Of a stretch of DNA of 40,000 nt, positions 32,152-36,122 are shown one piece after another. The position numbers and the translations under genes are program-made. The notes beneath the pieces were generated by a model. It was not told the origin of the DNA. It saw only the letters and a program-made list of their open reading frames with translations, and searched no databases. The stretch covers positions 1,534,878 to 1,574,877 of the forward strand of contig NZ_CP040463.1 in assembly GCF_005843985.1 (NCBI RefSeq), in the 5' to 3' direction. The stretch comes from Caminibacter mediatlanticus TB-2. Its GTDB lineage: Bacteria > Campylobacterota > Campylobacteria > Campylobacterales > Nautiliaceae. Numbering within the stretch: the first letter of the stretch is position 1; each line of letters starts with the position of its first letter.

Positions 32152-32736
32152 ATGAAAATAGATTGTAGGGGACTTGCATGTCCAGAGCCTGTAATTAAAA
32201 CAAAAAGAGCATTAGATGAAATTAATGAAGGTGTAATTGAAGTAATTGTAGATAATATTGCTTCAAAAGAGAATGTAAAAAGATTTGCTGAAAATCAAGG
32301 ATATAGTGTTGATGTAAAAGAAGACAATGGCATTTCAATTCTTACAATAGTAAAAGGTTATGAGTGTAAAATTGTAGAAGATAATAGTAATAATTTATTA
32401 AACAAAACTCTTTTATTTAAAGATGACAAAGTAGGAGAAGGAGAACTTGGAAAAAAACTTCTTAGAGGTTTTTTAAAAACTTTACTCGATTTTGATAAGT
32501 TACCAAAAACAATTATTTTTATAAATAGAGGTGTTTTTGTAACAACAAAAGAAGAATTTTCTGATGTCCAAGAAATATTAAAAGAACTTAATAAAAAAGG
32601 TGTAGAAATATACTCTTGCGGTCTTTGTATGGAACATTTTGGAATAAATCCAAAAGAGTTAAAAGTTGGGGAAATTGGAAATGCCTTTGGGACTATGGAT
32701 GCTTTACTTAATTCAGAAAATACAATTACTTTTTAA
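32152..32736 (+). CDS. yedF: long-form YedF-like selenium metabolism protein (TusA/SirA domain + DsrE-like C-terminal domain)
   Basis: Start taken at ATG 32152 (RBS AAAGGAGAG); an alternative ATG is at 32128. N-terminal domain MKIDCRGLACPEPVIKTKRAL carries the TusA CPxP motif. The C-terminal domain has YSCGLCMEHFG. Confidence 0.75.
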   Translation: MKIDCRGLACPEPVIKTKRALDEINEGVIEVIVDNIASKENVKRFAENQGYSVDVKEDNGISILTIVKGYECKIVEDNSNNLLNKTLLFKDDKVGEGELGKKLLRGFLKTLLDFDKLPKTIIFINRGVFVTTKEEFSDVQEILKELNKKGVEIYSCGLCMEHFGINPKELKVGEIGNAFGTMDALLNSENTITF

Positions 32737-32745
32737 GGAGACAAT

Positions 32746-33861
32746 ATGAAAAGAAGAGATTTTTTAAAAACAAGTGCAGTTTTAGGCTTAGTTTCAACAA
32801 TGCCGATTAGTTTAAGTGCAAATGAAAATAATGCTACAAGAAGATTTAATGTTAAATATATGTTTAATATTAAATATTATGAAAAAGAATATCCTGCAAG
32901 ACTTTGGAATCCAATGCCATATAATGCAGAATATCAGCATGTAAGATATTTAAATTTTGATGGTAATTATAATGATTATGATTTAAATACTAATAATGAA
33001 TATGACGCAAATACTTTTTATGCAGAATGGAAAAAATCTGATATGCCAAAAATTGTATTAATGGAAATGATAATTGAAACAAAATATAGAACAATACCAA
33101 TTGATAAAATTGAATACTTCTCAAAACAAAACTTACCTATTCCAAAAAATGTAAAAAAATATCTTGAACCTACTGCTCATATACCAACAGGAGGAATAAT
33201 TAAACAACTTGCAGATAGAATAACTCAAGGGAAAAAAGATAGATTTGAAAAAGTAAAAGCAATTTATTATTGGTGTGTATCACATACATTTAGAGACCCA
33301 AAAGTTATAGGATGTGGTAAAGGTGATGTTAATAAAATGGTAAAAAAACAAGATGTAGAAGATATTTATAAAAATGGATGGTTTGGTGGTAAATGTACAG
33401 ATTTAAGTTCACTATTTACAGCTTTAACTCGCGCAGCAGGAGTACCTGCAAGAGAAGTATTTGGTATTAGACTTGGAAAAAGTTATTTTTCTAAAGCTCT
33501 TGGAAAAAGTAATGACAAAGGATTTGCAAATATTACCACTTGGCAACATTGTAGGGCTGAGTATTATATTCCAGGAGCTGGATGGATACCAACAGACCCA
33601 GCTGATATTACAAAATTAATGCTTGTTGAAAATCTAAAATTTGACCATCCAAAAGTACAAAAATTAGTAAAAAAATATCTAAATTCTTGGGAAATGAACT
33701 GGGTTGGATTTAATCACGCAAGAGATTTTGTGCTTTACCCAAAACCAACTCAATATCCACTTAATATGTTTGGATATCCATATGCTGAGGTTAATGATGA
33801 AGTATTAAATTATTATGTACCAAAATCTTTTGAATACAAAATTACTTCGCAAGAGTTATAA
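32746..33861 (+). CDS. Tat-exported transglutaminase-like (Cys-His-Asp) protein
   Basis: Twin-arginine signal MKRRDFLKTSAVLGLVS. Transglutaminase core GGKCTDLSSLFTALTRAAGVPAREVFG, HCRAEYYIPGAGWIPTDPAD. Confidence 0.8.
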   Translation: MKRRDFLKTSAVLGLVSTMPISLSANENNATRRFNVKYMFNIKYYEKEYPARLWNPMPYNAEYQHVRYLNFDGNYNDYDLNTNNEYDANTFYAEWKKSDMPKIVLMEMIIETKYRTIPIDKIEYFSKQNLPIPKNVKKYLEPTAHIPTGGIIKQLADRITQGKKDRFEKVKAIYYWCVSHTFRDPKVIGCGKGDVNKMVKKQDVEDIYKNGWFGGKCTDLSSLFTALTRAAGVPAREVFGIRLGKSYFSKALGKSNDKGFANITTWQHCRAEYYIPGAGWIPTDPADITKLMLVENLKFDHPKVQKLVKKYLNSWEMNWVGFNHARDFVLYPKPTQYPLNMFGYPYAEVNDEVLNYYVPKSFEYKITSQEL

Positions 33862-33864
33862 TAA

Positions 33865-34452
33865 ATGGTTAAAAAAATTGATTGTAGAAATTTAGCCTGT
33901 CCTGAGCCTGTATTGAAAACAAAAGAGGCATTAGAAGAGATGGAAGAAGGAATTTTAGAAGTTAAGCTTAATTCCTTCTCTTCTATTCAAAATGTTAAAA
34001 GATTTGCTAAGAACCAAGGATTGTATATATCAGAAAAAAAAGATGGAAAAGATACGATAATATCAATTGTTAAAGGTTATGAATGTGAAATACCTTATAA
34101 GCAAACGAATGAATCAAAATCATTTTGGACTTTGATTATTGGAGCGGTTATAACAGCTTTTTTAGCAAGTACGTGTTGTTTAGGACCTCTTTTATTCTTA
34201 ATTTTTGGAATAAGTGTTGGTAGTCTTTCTTTTTTACATATATTTGCACCATATCATATATACTTTTCAATCGCAGCAGTATTAATTATTTTGTATTTAT
34301 GGGGCAATTGGTTTTTTAAATTAAGAAAAAAACCTGTTTGTGAGGGAAGTATTTGTAAAAACTATGTAAAATACCTAACAATTGGTACTATATTTGTAGC
34401 AATTTTAGTTACTTATCCTTATTGGGCTCAATATATTTTAATAGGAGAATAA
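33865..34452 (+). CDS. TusA-domain / MerT-like membrane protein fusion
   Basis: Residues 1-75: KIDCRNLACPEPVLKTKEAL (TusA). Residues about 85-195 align along the whole length of Tn501 MerT: ASTCCLGPLLFL (MerT ASACCLGPLVL), APYHIYF (EPYRPIF) and cytoplasmic-loop pair CEGSIC (CKPGEVC). Three TM segments. Confidence 0.8.
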   Translation: MVKKIDCRNLACPEPVLKTKEALEEMEEGILEVKLNSFSSIQNVKRFAKNQGLYISEKKDGKDTIISIVKGYECEIPYKQTNESKSFWTLIIGAVITAFLASTCCLGPLLFLIFGISVGSLSFLHIFAPYHIYFSIAAVLIILYLWGNWFFKLRKKPVCEGSICKNYVKYLTIGTIFVAILVTYPYWAQYILIGE

Positions 34453-34453
34453 A

Positions 34454-34726
34454 ATGAAAAAATTAATTTTATTAATTCCTTTTTTATTATTTGCAACAAA
34501 AGAAGCAATAATTGATGTTAAAGGAATGACTTGTCCTTTATGTACTACTGCAGTAAAAAGAAGTTTAAAAATGACTCCGGGCGTAAAAAACGCAAAAGTA
34601 TTTTTAAATACACATACTGCTTATGTTATTTTTGATGAAAAAAAAGTAAATACAGAAAAACTTATTCAAGCTATAAGAAATGTTGGATATGATGGAAAAA
34701 TAATCAAAATAAAGGAGGTTAAATGA
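34454..34726 (+). CDS. MerP-like periplasmic heavy-metal-associated (HMA) protein
   Basis: 90 aa. Signal peptide, then VKGMTCPLCTTAVKRSL (GMTCxxC) and a ferredoxin-like HMA fold pattern. Confidence 0.8.
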   Translation: MKKLILLIPFLLFATKEAIIDVKGMTCPLCTTAVKRSLKMTPGVKNAKVFLNTHTAYVIFDEKKVNTEKLIQAIRNVGYDGKIIKIKEVK

Positions 34727-35079
34727 AATTTTTATTTATTTTTAATCATCAGCCATATGATGGAAGCGATCTTACATGGAACGGTTTAAGACTTGCAAAA
34801 AATTTACATAATAGAGGACATGATGGTAGAATTTTTTTAATAAGTGATAGTGTGGATTTAGCAAGAGATTGTGTTAAAAAACCAGAAAACTACGATAATG
34901 ATTTAGTTGCAATGTTAAAAGAGATGTATAATAATGGAGTTAAATTAAAAGTATGTGGTACTTGCCAAGCAAGATGTGGTATTTATAAAAATGAACCATA
35001 TTTTGATGAGAAAATTAAAGCTACAATGAATGATTTAGCTAATTGGTGTGAAGAAGCAGATAAAATTATTACATTTTAA
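34723..35079 (+). CDS. DsrE/DsrF(TusD)-family sulfur/selenium-relay protein
   Basis: 118 aa. MKFLFIFNHQPYDGSD..GLRLA and VCGTCQARCGI are typical of the DsrE fold and its conserved Cys region. 4-nt overlap with the merP-like gene. Confidence 0.7.
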   Translation: MKFLFIFNHQPYDGSDLTWNGLRLAKNLHNRGHDGRIFLISDSVDLARDCVKKPENYDNDLVAMLKEMYNNGVKLKVCGTCQARCGIYKNEPYFDEKIKATMNDLANWCEEADKIITF

Positions 35080-35087
35080 GGAAAGAA

Positions 35088-36122
35088 ATGAATCTAAAAC
35101 CAAAACTTACTAAATATGTAAAAGCTGCTGGTTGAGCAGGAAAATTGGCTCCGGAGGAGCTAAAACAAACAACTATAAATTTAAATAGTAAAGATAAAAA
35201 TTTAATAGTAGGATTTGATGGAAATGAAGATGCTGCTGTTTATGAACTAACAGATGATATTGCAATAGTCCAGACAATAGATTTCATAACTCCTGTAATT
35301 GATGACCCATATATTTACGGACAAATCGCAGCTGCAAATTCATTAAGTGATGTGTTTGCTATGGGAGGGGATGTTAAAACAGCTTTAAATTTAGTAGGTT
35401 TTGATAGTTGCCATCATACAAATGAAGTCTTACAAGAAATATTGGCTGGGGGAGAGAGCAAAATAAAAGAATGTGGAGGTGTTTTAGTTGGAGGACATAC
35501 AATTGAAACACCTGAAATGATTTATGGATTAAGCGTTACAGGAATTATTCATCCTCAAAAAATAATAAGAAACAATACTATAAAAACAGGAGATTTAATA
35601 ACTTTAACTAAACCTCTTGGAATGGGAATTTTAACAACAGCAATTAAAGCAGATTTAGTAAGTTTAGATTTAATGCAAAAAGTAGCTGATATTTTAAGAG
35701 AACTTAATTACAAAGCAAGTTTAATTGCAAGAGAAGTTGGTGTTAATGCAATGACTGATGTAACTGGCTTTGGACTTTTAGGGCATTTATATGAAATGAG
35801 TAGTAATAAAAAAACTATTGAAATAGAATTTCAAAAAGTTCCTTTTTTAAAAGAAGCAATTGAGTTTGCTTCAATGGGAATAATTCCAGCTGGAAGTTAT
35901 AATAATAAACTATTTGTTGAAAAATATGTAGAAATTAAAAATAAACTCTCTTTTGAAGAAGAGATGATTTTATTTGATGCTCAAACAAGTGGAGGACTTT
36001 TAATCAGTATAGAAGAAAATAAAGCAAATAATTTACTTAGTAAATTACACAATGAAGGAATAAATGCTTCAATTATAGGAGAAGTAAAAAAATTAAATGA
36101 AAAACCTATAATAGTAAAGTAA
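35088..36122 (+). CDS. selD: selenide, water dikinase (selenophosphate synthetase), selenocysteine-containing (TGA 35133..35135)
   Basis: ATG 35088: MNLKPKLTKYVKAAG-U-AGKLAPEEL; U sits where E. coli SelD has Cys17 (GCGCK). It continues in frame into ORF 35145..36122 (GNEDAAVY, SDVFAMGG, VGGHT). Total 344 aa. Confidence 0.9.
35145..35163 (+). promoter_or_regulatory. SECIS-like hairpin downstream of the selD UGA
   Basis: UUGGCUCC-GGA-GGAGCUAA: 8 pairs including one G-U, with a G-rich apex. It starts 12 nt after the UGA. Confidence 0.55.

What the first reader, a model, noticed from the sequence alone, without database searches (positions are those of the whole stretch)
32152..36122. selD operon encodes a MerP/MerT-type cysteine relay plus TusA, DsrE and YedF carriers: candidate undescribed selenium uptake and delivery system
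Seen: six same-strand genes are packed with gaps of 9, 3, 1, -4 and 8 nt, preceded by a long leader and closed by a hairpin. In order they are long-form YedF, a Tat-exported transglutaminase-like protein, a TusA-MerT fusion, a MerP-like GMTCxxC protein, a DsrE-like protein and Sec-containing SelD. selA, selB and tRNA-Sec lie immediately upstream, and two Sec-dependent formate dehydrogenases lie nearby. The window contains no merA, merR, merC or yedE. Established: in mer operons, periplasmic MerP passes Hg(II) by thiol exchange to the MerT CC pair and then to a cytoplasmic Cys pair. TusA and DsrE proteins carry persulfide on a conserved Cys. YedE/YedF (FdhT/FdhU in C. jejuni) are genetically tied to selenium supply for FDH. 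SelD needs a reduced selenium donor. Inference: the mer-like parts have been recruited into a thiol relay that moves selenium from periplasm to SelD. The proposed path is MerP-like, then the MerT CC pair, then the loop CxxxxC, then the fused TusA Cys, then DsrE/YedF, then SelD, with the MerT-like protein functionally replacing YedE. Every step offers a Cys that could carry Se as a selenotrisulfide or perselenide.
Basis: partly seen in the sequence, partly recalled or inferred. Interest (0 to 1): 0.85.

Follow-up and report, generated by a model that had tools for sequence, protein, structure and literature searches.

The report
Mercury-transporter-like selenium supply operon
A six-gene operon ending in the selenium-activating enzyme SelD contains relatives of mercury-uptake proteins and an exported cysteine enzyme; comparison with about 140 other genomes ties these parts to selenium rather than mercury, so this is probably an undescribed way for bacteria to capture selenium.

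Summary
The window is from Caminibacter mediatlanticus TB-2.

- The conserved unit is a triad: a Tat-exported transglutaminase-like (TGase-like) protein, then a MerT-like protein (often fused to TusA), then a periplasmic HMA protein.
- The triad occurs in 58 Campylobacterota loci. In 31 of them selD, selA/selB, tRNA-Sec or yedF lies within the fetched flanks, against about 1 expected. At least five different gene orders are involved.
- None of the 58 loci has merA, merR or yedE.

Three further results were new.
- The TGase-like protein is the most conserved and most widespread part. In Proteobacteria its relatives pair with a TlpA-like redoxin. There they sit beside selenoneine genes (senB, senA, senC), selD, or inside a selA-selB-tRNA-Sec operon.
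- One conserved palindrome/hairpin precedes the triad, yedF, selD and a SelD-correlated double-cubane gene. This suggests a single regulon.
- The TusA domain of the fusion is a paralog of the YedF N-terminal domain (56% identity).

The cargo, the direction of transport and the order of the cysteine relay remain inference. I found no publication describing this system. I rate it a new variant of a known kind, with high interest.

The parts
31837..31930 (-). tRNA-Sec (selC), divergent from the operon
   Evidence: ARAGORN. Rfam RF01852 at 69.3 bits. A promoter-like site on the - strand lies at 31970-31942.
31986..32013 (+). Promoter-like site for the six-gene operon (TTGAGT, 16 nt spacer, TG-TAGAAT)
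   Evidence: Consensus scan only; not evidence of function.
32029..32043 (+). First copy of the palindrome/hairpin (A)CCTAAGGTTTAGG(T)
   Evidence: Pattern search finds 2 copies where 0.08 are expected. Predicted hairpin.
32055..32099 (+). Conserved leader motif: hairpin GGCCUAAGGAUUAGGC followed by an AAUACA junction
   Evidence: Covariance model R1 scores it 38 bits, E about 1e-9. The same motif lies upstream of the TGase-like gene, yedF, selD and double-cubane genes in 22 other loci (23 with the window).
32152..32736 (+). Long-form YedF: TusA-like N domain with CPEP, DsrE-like C domain with CGLC
   Evidence: TIGR03527 at 200 bits against a cut-off of 110. PF01206 and PF02635. Cysteines at 5, 10, 72, 156 and 159.
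32746..33861 (+). Tat-exported transglutaminase-like protein. Cys217-His268-Asp284 triad plus invariant Cys190 (GCG) and Cys269 (HC)
   Evidence: PF01841 and a Tat signal. Invariant residues in alignment A3 and A4. AF2 model with pLDDT 79.7. Best matching fold is 3ISR. Immediately upstream of the MerT-like gene in all 49 of 58 loci that hold at least 30% of the TGase-like gene.
33865..34452 (+). Fusion of a YedF-N/TusA-like domain to a three-helix MerT-like membrane protein. Cysteines: C12 (CPEP), C74, C104-C105 (TM1), C159 and C164 (cytoplasmic loop)
   Evidence: PF01206 and PF02411. C104, C105, C159 and C164 are invariant in 23 homologs. 56% identity to the YedF N domain. Positive-inside topology.
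34454..34726 (+). Periplasmic HMA (MerP/CopZ-like) protein with signal peptide and GMTCPLC
   Evidence: PF00403. Below the MerP and CopZ equivalog cut-offs. The motif (GM[TS]C[PL][LM]C) and signal peptide are conserved in the genuine Campylobacterota copies.
34723..35079 (+). DsrE/YchN-like protein with VCGTCQARC
   Evidence: PF02635 at 63.7 bits. Matches 1JX7 YchN. 34% identical to the YedF C domain with the CGxC motif aligned. Found between HMA and selD only in Nautiliaceae-type loci.
35088..36122 (+). Selenophosphate synthetase SelD with selenocysteine (UGA at 35133-35135)
   Evidence: TIGR00476 at 340 bits. Translation. SECIS-like hairpin at 35145-35163.
36117..36153 (.). 13-bp hairpin between convergent genes, terminator-like in both directions
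   Evidence: Fold energy -17 kcal/mol, z -3.14. Missed by the terminator scan because the stem is A+T-rich.
28692..31831 (+). selA (28692-30011) and selB (30008-31831)
   Evidence: ORFs. Homologs recur next to the triad in L001, L002, L003, L008, L012 and L045.
7651..10470 (+). Tat-exported formate dehydrogenase catalytic subunit with selenocysteine (UGA at 8194-8196); a selenium consumer
   Evidence: Translation shows HQARI-U-HSATVAG.
25598..27829 (-). FdhH-type formate dehydrogenase with selenocysteine (UGA at 27410-27412), next to a hydrogenase-4-type complex; a selenium consumer
   Evidence: Translation shows HCARL-U-HGP. Neighbouring subunits by Pfam.

Best explanation
This is a selenium acquisition and delivery operon. 

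Proposed mechanism (inferred):
1. In the periplasm the Tat-exported transglutaminase-like enzyme acts together with the CxxC protein HMA. The enzyme has a Cys-His-Asp triad plus two further invariant cysteines. The pair captures or reduces environmental selenium into a protein-bound thiol adduct, a selenotrisulfide or perselenide.
2. The selenium passes to the CC pair in the first membrane helix of the MerT-like protein.
3. It then passes to the CxxxxC pair on the cytoplasmic loop of that protein.
4. It then passes to the fused YedF-type TusA cysteine.
5. Soluble YedF and the YchN-like DsrE protein carry it to the Sec-containing loop of SelD.
6. SelD makes selenophosphate for SelA and so for the two selenocysteine formate dehydrogenases.

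Shown by computation: gene order and tight packing, domain content, export signals, topology, invariant cysteines, conserved linkage to selenium genes, absence of mer genes, and a shared upstream regulatory motif.

Inferred, not shown: that selenium is the cargo, its chemical form, inward direction, the order of hand-offs, and the catalytic role of the transglutaminase-like enzyme.
For: 1. Neighbourhood. The triad TGase-like, MerT-like, HMA is conserved in 58 Campylobacterota loci from 56 species-level genomes.
- selD lies within 5 kb in 24 loci.
- tRNA-Sec lies directly after HMA in L013, L019, L021, L039 and L042.
- A further two loci count through other genes: L012 carries yedF, selAB and tRNA-Sec, and L005 carries yedF. 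selAB also lies near the triad in six loci in all (L001, L002, L003, L008, L012, L045).
- In total 31 of 58 loci are linked, against about 1 expected.
- At least five gene orders occur: HMA>selD; HMA>dsrE>selD; HMA>yedF>selD; HMA> <HAD<selD; <selD TGase>.

2. No mer context. merA and merR are absent from all 58 loci, while 22 of 22 true merT controls have merR. The one MerA-like hit, in L054, is a lipoamide dehydrogenase next to lipA.

3. The TGase-like family is selenium-linked on its own in Proteobacteria. 13 of 83 loci lie next to senB-senA-senC, selD, or selA-selB-tRNA-Sec. SenA scores 482 bits and SenB 400 bits. L152 reads selA, redoxin, TGase-like, selB, tRNA-Sec. About 0.4 linked loci are expected by chance.

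4. Shared motif. Covariance model R1 gives 27 hits in 23 sources (22 loci and the window).
- They lie about 100 nt upstream of the TGase-like gene, upstream of yedF (window, L001, L002, L005, L028), and upstream of selD (L025).
- They also lie upstream of a double-cubane NF040772 gene with its activase (L010, L165, L166).
- NF040772 is reported as tightly SelD-correlated (bioRxiv 10.1101/2022.07.06.499078).
- There are no hits in 800 kb of control DNA.

5. The N domain of the fusion is 56% identical to the YedF N domain and scores 61.5 bits on the YedF model against 14.9 on TusA. YedF is an established selenium-associated family (PMC5322559).

6. C104, C105, C159 and C164 are invariant. The loop KLRKKPVCEGSIC carries 5 Lys/Arg, which places it and the TusA domain in the cytoplasm. 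HMA always has a signal peptide and the motif GM[TS]C[PL][LM]C, GMTCPLC in most copies.

7. Precedent. In YeeE-YeeD thiosulfate uptake a membrane cysteine relay hands its cargo to a TusA-family 'fourth cysteine', and natural fusions exist (PMC11073785).

8. No yedE occurs in the window or in any of the 58 loci.
Against: - There is no experiment. Cargo and direction are unknown.
- 27 of 58 loci show no selenium gene in the available flanks. Many of these contigs are short, but L024, L040, L044 and L054 have the full 10 kb on each side. The unfused MerT-only forms are linked to selenium genes less often.
- Loci from related species are not independent, so the Poisson figures overstate significance.
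- Genome-wide co-occurrence with selD, and mutual exclusion with yedE, could not be tested.
- In Proteobacteria the TGase-like partner is a TlpA-like redoxin and there is no MerT. The membrane step may therefore not be the essential part, and the module could supply reductant rather than conduct selenium.
- TusA and DsrE are sulfur carriers by default.
- The TGase-like protein has no characterised close relative. The PDB sequence search found nothing, and the best matching fold (3ISR) has unknown function.
Confidence: 0.55

Rival explanations
1. Reductant relay. The MerT-like CC and CxxxxC pairs together with HMA would carry reducing equivalents outward, as DsbD/CcdA does with TlpA. This would keep the periplasmic transglutaminase-like enzyme reduced while it processes selenium. 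Selenium itself would enter by another route, for example as membrane-permeant H2Se or through an anion transporter.
For: In Proteobacteria the same TGase-like family pairs with a ResA/TlpA-type thiol-disulfide oxidoreductase in 51 of 83 loci, with no MerT. Thioredoxin-like genes also lie next to the triad in some Campylobacterota loci: c33 in L013 and L021, and Thioredox_DsbH in L165.
Against: The cytoplasmic partner fused to MerT is a YedF/TusA-type atom carrier, not a thioredoxin. No thioredoxin reductase-like partner is encoded. The MerT family is known for passing a bound atom, not electrons (established knowledge of mer systems).
Confidence: 0.15
2. Sulfane-sulfur import or trafficking. 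The module would move persulfide or polysulfide sulfur for sulfur-respiring or sulfur-oxidising Campylobacterota. On this reading it sits near selD only because sulfur and selenium chemistry share carriers.
For: TusA and DsrE are sulfur carriers. The host lineages live on sulfur compounds (own knowledge). Periplasmic DsrE-like, metallo-beta-lactamase and 5'-nucleotidase/SoxB-like genes flank the triad in L013, L019 and L021.
Against: The linked genes are specific to selenium: selD, selA, selB, tRNA-Sec, senABC and the YedF equivalog. No sulfur-oxidation or sulfur-assimilation genes recur. The shared motif also marks selD and yedF. The TusA domain scores far better on the YedF model than on TusA or YeeD models.
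Confidence: 0.1
3. Handling of thiophilic metals. A MerT/MerP-type system would take up or buffer Hg, Cu, Ag or Cd so that these metals do not poison selenide and selenocysteine enzymes at hydrothermal vents.
For: PF02411 and PF00403 match. HMA scores 50-64 bits on the CopZ and MerP models. Known selenoprotein versions of MerT and HMA are annotated as heavy-metal transport proteins: NF045683 and NF041115 (PMC9312934).
Against: merA, merR, P-type ATPase genes and metal-sensor genes do not recur in the 58 loci. Importing Hg without MerA would be harmful. All mer and CopZ equivalog cut-offs are missed. This reading does not explain the TGase-like family's link to sen and sel genes in Proteobacteria.
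Confidence: 0.08
4. Selenium detoxification or export. The relay would run outward to remove excess selenium from the cytoplasm.
For: Lin et al. raised an exporter role for YedE (PMC5322559). Thiol relays can run in either direction.
Against: The module sits with selenium consumers (selD, selAB, senABC) and not with reductases or efflux pumps. Vent fluids contain little selenium (own knowledge).
Confidence: 0.05

Closest known systems
MerT/MerP mercury uptake of mer operons
   Same: A three-helix MerT-fold membrane protein with a CC pair in helix 1 and a second Cys pair on the cytoplasmic loop. A periplasmic HMA protein with GMTCxxC. The two genes are adjacent in the same order.
   Different: There is no merR or merA (0 of 58 loci). 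It scores 41.7 against a cut-off of 150 for MerT, and 50.6 against 92.55 for MerP. It carries an N-terminal YedF-type TusA domain. It is always preceded by a Tat-exported transglutaminase-like gene. It is linked to selenium genes.
YedE/YedF (FdhT/FdhU), the putative selenium transporter pair
   Same: A YedF-type TusA domain is coupled to a membrane protein. The pair lies next to selD and sel genes and supplies selenocysteine formate dehydrogenases (PMC5322559).
   Different: The membrane partner has a MerT fold (3 helices), not a YedE/YeeE fold. No yedE lies nearby. There are two extra periplasmic components.
YeeE-YeeD (TsuA-TsuB) thiosulfate uptake
   Same: A cysteine relay across the membrane ends on a TusA-family cysteine. 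Natural fusions of transporter and TusA exist (PMC11073785).
   Different: The membrane fold is unrelated. The TusA domain is at the N terminus rather than the C terminus. The presumed cargo is selenium.
Bacterial transglutaminase-like putative cysteine proteases (PF01841; PDB 3ISR)
   Same: Same fold and the same Cys-His-Asp triad.
   Different: This subfamily is Tat-exported. It has two additional invariant cysteines, in GCG and QHCRAE motifs. It is linked to selenium genes in two phyla. No member has a described function.
Selenoneine cluster senA/senB/senC
   Same: In Proteobacteria the TGase-like gene and its redoxin partner lie directly beside senB, senA and senC.
   Different: The window has no sen genes. 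The original report on the cluster mentions only a putative selenate transporter as an accessory gene (10.1101/2022.04.13.486033).

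Membership tests
MerT (mercuric ion transporter of mer operons) | MerT domain (PF02411) above Pfam's gathering score | tested here: met
   36.4 bits against a cut-off of 32.9, residues 89-190.
MerT (mercuric ion transporter of mer operons) | CC pair in the first membrane helix and a Cys pair on the cytoplasmic loop | tested here: met
   C104, C105, C159 and C164 are invariant in 23 homologs. The loop has 5 Lys/Arg.
MerT (mercuric ion transporter of mer operons) | Reaches the NCBIfam equivalog score | tested here: not met
   NF010314 scores 41.7 against 150. 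The MerTP fusion model scores 39.4 against 180.
MerT (mercuric ion transporter of mer operons) | Encoded with merR and merA | tested here: not met
   0 of 58 loci and none in the window. Among controls, 22 of 22 have merR and 5 of 22 have merA.
MerT (mercuric ion transporter of mer operons) | Transports Hg(II) | not testable with these tools
   Needs Hg uptake or MIC assays.
MerP (periplasmic Hg-binding protein) | HMA fold with GMTCxxC and a signal peptide | tested here: met
   PF00403 at 55.6 bits. MKKLILLIPFLLFA followed by GMTCPLC.
MerP (periplasmic Hg-binding protein) | Reaches the MerP equivalog score | tested here: not met
   TIGR02052 scores 50.6 against 92.55. CopZ scores 63.6 against 91.
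YedF, long form (TIGR03527) | TusA-like N domain with CPxP plus DsrE-like C domain with CGxC, above the equivalog cut-off | tested here: met
   Gene 1 scores 200 bits against 110. CPEP and CGLC are both present.
YedE/YedF selenium system | A YedE (YeeE/YedE-fold) membrane partner | tested here: not met
   tblastn with E. coli YedE finds nothing in the window or in L001-L058. The rest of the genome could not be searched.
YeeE-YeeD type cysteine-relay importers | A TusA-family cysteine positioned at the cytoplasmic exit of a Cys-lined membrane protein | tested here: inconclusive
   The fusion and the topology fit. No coordinates or complex model were available, and the membrane fold differs.
SelD, selenophosphate synthetase | Equivalog score and Sec or Cys in the N-terminal glycine-rich loop | tested here: met
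   TIGR00476 at 340 bits against 125. UGA within AAG-U-AGK, with a downstream hairpin.
Transglutaminase-like superfamily (PF01841) | Core domain with a conserved Cys-His-Asp triad | tested here: met
   73.8 bits. C217, H268 and D284 are invariant or nearly so. Foldseek match to 3ISR at E 1e-13.
Rfam RNA families (for the leader) | Any family reaching its gathering score or E below 1 | tested here: not met
   Only tRNA-Sec in the window. Nothing in 31931-32170.

The most novel reading that the evidence does not exclude
A widespread periplasmic enzyme family is the dedicated front end of bacterial selenium acquisition. The family is Tat-exported, transglutaminase-like, and has three invariant cysteines. 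It feeds all SelD-dependent pathways, namely selenocysteine and selenoneine. It works with a MerT/MerP-type cysteine relay fused to a YedF domain in Campylobacterota, and with TlpA-like redoxins in Proteobacteria. In Campylobacterota the whole set (triad, yedF, selD, double-cubane reductase) is switched by one conserved leader element. That element could be a selenium-responsive RNA or the operator of a selenium sensor.
Probability: 0.35. Interest if true: 0.9.

Novelty: new variant of a known kind. Interest (0 to 1): 0.8.

Why it matters
How bacteria obtain trace selenium specifically, and hand it safely to SelD, is a long-standing gap. YedE/YedF are only genetic and bioinformatic candidates. 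The chemical form in which selenium is delivered to SelD in the cell is also unknown.

This locus gives a concrete, testable pathway built from small cysteine proteins that can each be purified. It also points to three things not described in the literature I could search:
- a MerT/MerP scaffold re-used for a metalloid nutrient;
- a large transglutaminase-like family tied to selenium in at least two phyla, including the newly found selenoneine pathway;
- a cis-regulatory motif that defines a selenium regulon.

It would also correct the annotation 'mercuric transporter MerT family protein', which these genes currently carry.

Tried and rejected
- **Outer helix of the leader.** An outer helix (P0) enclosing the leader hairpin looked convincing by eye, with several different complementary sequences. 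A shuffle test gives only z = 2.5, because 5-6 bp matches are common in A+T-rich DNA. RNAalifold supports only the inner hairpin. I therefore claim only the hairpin/palindrome.
- **RNA hairpin or DNA operator.** This could not be settled. All 6 pairs covary, but the five inner pairs never show G-U. That pattern fits a protein-binding palindrome as well as an RNA stem.
- **Regulator.** No conserved regulator gene was found. The window's Crp-like gene has no counterpart in the loci, and its LysR-like gene recurs only in L025.
- **L060.** selD lies 6 kb from a true merR-merT-merA operon there. It is the senC of a selenoneine-type cluster, so the proximity is a coincidence.
- **L054.** The 'MerA' hit is a lipoamide dehydrogenase next to lipA.
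- **Solved structures.** The PDB sequence search for the TGase-like protein found nothing. The fold search found only uncharacterised or eukaryotic transglutaminases.
- **Proteobacterial neighbours.** Beyond the redoxin, the recurring neighbours of the proteobacterial TGase-like gene (FAD oxidase, methyltransferase-like, Mo-oxidoreductase-like, MFS) showed no clear pattern. Many 'clusters' were shadow ORFs of G+C-rich DNA.
- **Double-cubane pair.** It lies near the triad in only three Sulfurospirillum-type loci.
- **Literature.** Searches for MerT with TusA, MerT with selD, and transglutaminase-like with selenophosphate returned nothing relevant.
- **My own error.** My first SelD query was one base out of frame. 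It was corrected.

Full report
**1. What is in the window**

The fusion protein is 100% identical to a protein of Caminibacter mediatlanticus TB-2, where it is annotated 'mercury transporter MerT'.

- yedF 32152-32736
- a Tat-signal transglutaminase-like (TGase-like) gene 32746-33861
- a TusA-MerT fusion 33865-34452
- an HMA gene 34454-34726
- a DsrE-like gene 34723-35079
- selD 35088-36122

The gaps are 9, 3, 1, -4 and 8 nt.

Pfam and NCBIfam confirm each domain call:
- YedF matches the TIGR03527 equivalog at 200 bits.
- SelD matches TIGR00476 at 340 bits.
- MerT (PF02411) scores 36.4 bits, just above Pfam's cut-off of 32.9.
- MerT, MerP and CopZ all fall far below the NCBIfam equivalog cut-offs.

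SelD has an in-frame UGA at 35133-35135. A stable hairpin begins 10 nt later.

selA and selB lie upstream. tRNA-Sec (31837-31930) lies between selB and yedF but on the opposite strand.

A 13-bp hairpin (36117-36153, z -3.1) closes the operon against a convergent gene.

The rest of the window is a formate and selenium island. It holds FdhD, a Tat-exported Sec-FdhA, a tungstate/molybdate-type ABC transporter, FocA, a hydrogenase-4-type complex and a Sec-FdhH. None of the 30 ORFs scanned with Pfam is MerA, MerR or YedE. The two formate dehydrogenases, selA, selB and a few smaller ORFs were identified in other ways or not scanned. tblastn with YedE finds nothing in the window.

**2.

A scan of one genome per species returned 80 loci.
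- 58 are Campylobacterota: Nautiliaceae, Nitratifractor, Sulfurovum, Sulfurimonas and Sulfurospirillaceae.
- 22 are true merT loci of other phyla. These served as controls.

In the Campylobacterota set the conserved unit is a triad. The TGase-like gene lies immediately upstream of the MerT-like gene in all 49 loci that hold at least 30% of it. The HMA gene lies immediately downstream in the 55 loci that hold it. YedF, DsrE-like and SelD are variable additions.

Linkage to selenium genes:
- With a correctly framed SelD query, selD lies within 5 kb of the triad in 24 loci.
- tRNA-Sec follows HMA directly in five further loci.
- yedF brings in two more loci, L005 and L012 (L012 also carries selAB and tRNA-Sec); selAB lies near the triad in six loci in all.
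- In total 31 of 58 loci are linked, where about one would be expected.

The loci are phylogenetically related, so that figure is not a true probability. However, the linkage survives at least five different gene orders and strand arrangements. That is the signature of selection for proximity rather than inherited synteny.

No locus has merA or merR, whereas all 22 controls have merR. No locus has yedE.

**3. The transglutaminase-like protein is the core**

It is the most conserved component, at 58-81% identity across the phylum. It has an invariant Cys217-His268-Asp284 triad. It has two further invariant cysteines, in a GCG motif (C190) and next to the catalytic histidine (C269).

A search of 1.8 billion representative proteins shows the family extends well beyond this phylum. 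Full-length members at 30-47% identity are Tat-exported and keep all three cysteines. The few named hits are Alpha- and Betaproteobacteria.

I fetched 83 such loci.
- In 51 of them the gene is paired with a ResA/TlpA-like periplasmic thiol-disulfide oxidoreductase.
- 13 of them touch selenium genes.
  - Seven lie beside selenoneine genes. The full senB-senA-senC set is seen in L083, L084, L085 and L097. senB alone is seen in L086, L108 and L137. SenA scores 482 bits and SenB 400 bits, both above cut-off.
  - Three lie beside selD.
  - Three lie beside selA and selB.
- One contig reads selA, redoxin, TGase-like, selB, tRNA-Sec in a tight array.

This is independent evidence, from another phylum and another selenium pathway. 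It indicates that the family serves selenium metabolism. It also shows that the MerT/HMA pair is one of at least two alternative partners.

The AlphaFold model is confident (pLDDT 79.7). It resembles only uncharacterised bacterial 'putative cysteine proteases' such as 3ISR.

**4. A shared regulatory motif**

The leader of the window's operon has two copies of CCTAAGGnTTAGG.

Related palindromes occur upstream of yedF or of the TGase-like gene in other loci, with mirrored substitutions. Examples are CCTTA/TAAGG, CCCAA/TTGGG, CCCGA/TCGGG and CTCAA/TTGAG.

I built a covariance model from ten instances. It finds 27 sites in 23 sources (22 loci and the window).

Where the sites lie:
- usually about 100 nt upstream of the TGase-like start codon;
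- upstream of yedF in the window, L001, L002, L005 and L028;
- upstream of selD in L025;
- next to tRNA-Sec and selA in L012;
- upstream of a double-cubane reductase (NF040772, 454 bits) and its activase in three Sulfurospirillum-type loci.

NF040772 was reported to occur almost only in SelD-encoding genomes (bioRxiv 10.1101/2022.07.06.499078). Its relatives appear among predicted partners of YedE/YedF (PMC5322559).

There were no hits in 800 kb of control loci and no Rfam match.

All six pairs of the hairpin covary and 99.4% of cells are paired. The seed sequences were chosen by a palindrome pattern, and the alignment is fitted to the model. The five inner pairs never show G-U. I therefore cannot say whether it acts as an RNA hairpin or as a DNA operator. 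A larger enclosing helix is only weakly supported (z 2.5).

Either way, the motif places the triad in one regulon with yedF and selD.

**5. Anatomy relevant to mechanism**

- The N domain of the fusion is a paralog of the YedF N domain (56% identity).
- The stand-alone DsrE-like protein resembles the YedF C domain, with the CGxC motif aligned.
- The operon therefore presents YedF's two domains three times: free, membrane-anchored, and split.
- The MerT-like part keeps the CC pair in helix 1 and a CxxxxC pair, both invariant.
- Loop 1 has no charged residues. Loop 2 (KLRKKPVCEGSIC) has five Lys/Arg. This puts loop 2 and the TusA domain in the cytoplasm, as in classical MerT.
- HMA always has a signal peptide and GM[TS]C[PL][LM]C, which is GMTCPLC in most copies.
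- This geometry matches the YeeE-YeeD paradigm. There a membrane cysteine relay ends on a TusA-family 'fourth cysteine', and natural fusions occur (PMC11073785).

**6. Most likely mechanism, and rivals**

I propose capture and reduction of selenium in the periplasm by the TGase-like enzyme and the CxxC protein. Five thiols are on hand, enough for a Painter-type reaction of selenite to a selenotrisulfide. Passage would follow through the MerT-like cysteines to the fused YedF-type domain, and delivery to SelD through YedF and DsrE-like. RS-Se-SR is formally analogous to RS-Hg-SR, which is what MerP and MerT handle.

This whole paragraph is inference. Only the parts list, topology, conservation and linkage are shown.

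The main rival is that MerT-like and HMA provide reductant to the periplasmic enzyme. This is the role a TlpA-like redoxin would have in Proteobacteria. The fused TusA domain argues against it but does not exclude it. Sulfur trafficking, metal buffering and selenium export are less likely, for the reasons listed under the rival explanations.

**7. Known or new**

The literature I could search describes the following:
- YedE, YedF, DUF3343 and LysR_Se as candidate selenium genes (PMC5322559);
- MerT- and HMA-family selenoproteins (PMC9312934; NCBIfam NF045683 and NF041115);
- the sen cluster with a putative selenate transporter (10.1101/2022.04.13.486033).

None mentions a TusA-MerT fusion, a TGase-MerT-HMA module, a link between the transglutaminase-like family and selenium, or the leader motif. 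One STRING table in Lin et al. lists a 'transglutaminase-like enzyme' among ranked predicted partners in its YedE section (the column could not be read from the passage), without comment.

I class the finding as a new variant of known kinds, namely cysteine-relay importers and YedF-type selenium carriers. There is a realistic chance that it marks a new, widespread selenium-acquisition enzyme family.

**8. Limits**

- Whole-genome co-occurrence could not be computed, because the collection scans were capped.
- 27 of the 58 loci show no selenium gene in the DNA available.
- No structural coordinates were accessible, so distances between cysteines could not be measured.
- There are no experimental data.

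Noticed in passing
window 32029-32099; also L011:153-198, L028:8804-8849 and 16817-16862(-), L025:3980-4025(-), L010:6621-6666(-), L165:7813-7858 and 3713-3757(-): A conserved palindrome/hairpin (consensus GCUCAAGGUUUGAGC followed by nGACAUA) lies upstream of the TGase-like operon, yedF, selD and double-cubane genes. There are 27 hits in 23 sources (22 Campylobacterota loci and the window). All 6 pairs covary. It has no Rfam match. Whether it is an RNA element or a DNA operator is undecided.
   Followed up: partly
L081-L163 (for example L083:6001-10825, L152:8045-13150, L128:9933-15315): Proteobacterial relatives of the TGase-like protein are also Tat-exported and keep the same three cysteines. 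They pair with a TlpA/ResA-like redoxin in 51 of 83 loci. They sit next to senB-senA-senC, selD or selA-selB-tRNA-Sec in 13 of 83 loci.
   Followed up: partly
L003:12121-12588, L004, L008, L009, L011, L014, L020, L025, L028, L038, L045, L052: A 155-aa HAD-like protein, most similar to the HAD domain of P-type ATPases, follows selD on the same strand in at least 12 loci. It is absent from this window. It could be a phosphatase acting on selenophosphate metabolism.
   Followed up: no
L010:4475-6555(-), L165:1566-3646(-), L166:3475-5549(-): A double-cubane-cluster reductase (NF040772, 454 bits) and its activase lie 1-4 kb upstream of the triad and are preceded by the same motif. The family has been reported as almost exclusive to SelD-encoding genomes.
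   Followed up: partly
L013:10903-11002, L019:10880-10973, L021:10877-10970, L039:1071-1165, L042:798-891: In Sulfurospirillaceae-type loci tRNA-Sec (selC) follows on the same strand, about 40 nt after HMA in L013, L019 and L021 and farther downstream in L039 and L042. It may be co-transcribed with the triad.
   Followed up: no
L013, L019, L021 (about 5 kb upstream of the TGase-like gene): A recurring set lies upstream of the triad: a 5'-nucleotidase/SoxB-like protein, a metallo-beta-lactamase-fold protein, a periplasmic DsrE-like protein and a cytochrome c-thioredoxin-like protein. This may be further periplasmic chalcogen chemistry.
   Followed up: no
window 3066-27829: The window is a formate island: a LysR-like gene, FdhD, an Fe-S protein, a TorD-like chaperone, Tat Sec-FdhA, a tungstate/molybdate-type ABC transporter (12118-14722), FocA (14936-15802), a hydrogenase-4-type formate hydrogenlyase (16083-25613) and Sec-FdhH. 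Supply genes for selenium and probably for W/Mo are clustered with their consumers.
   Followed up: partly
window 27995-28636: A Crp/Fnr-family regulator lies directly upstream of selA. It is not conserved next to the triad in other loci.
   Followed up: partly
window 36129-39293 (-): A 1054-aa lipoprotein with a calcineurin-like phosphoesterase domain and repeated OB-fold-like segments runs convergent to selD and shares the terminator hairpin. Its function is unknown.
   Followed up: no
L044:10619-11100 (-): A HAD-like gene lies directly after HMA, as in L045, but no selD was detected beside it although 10 kb of flank is available. This may be gene loss or divergence.
   Followed up: no
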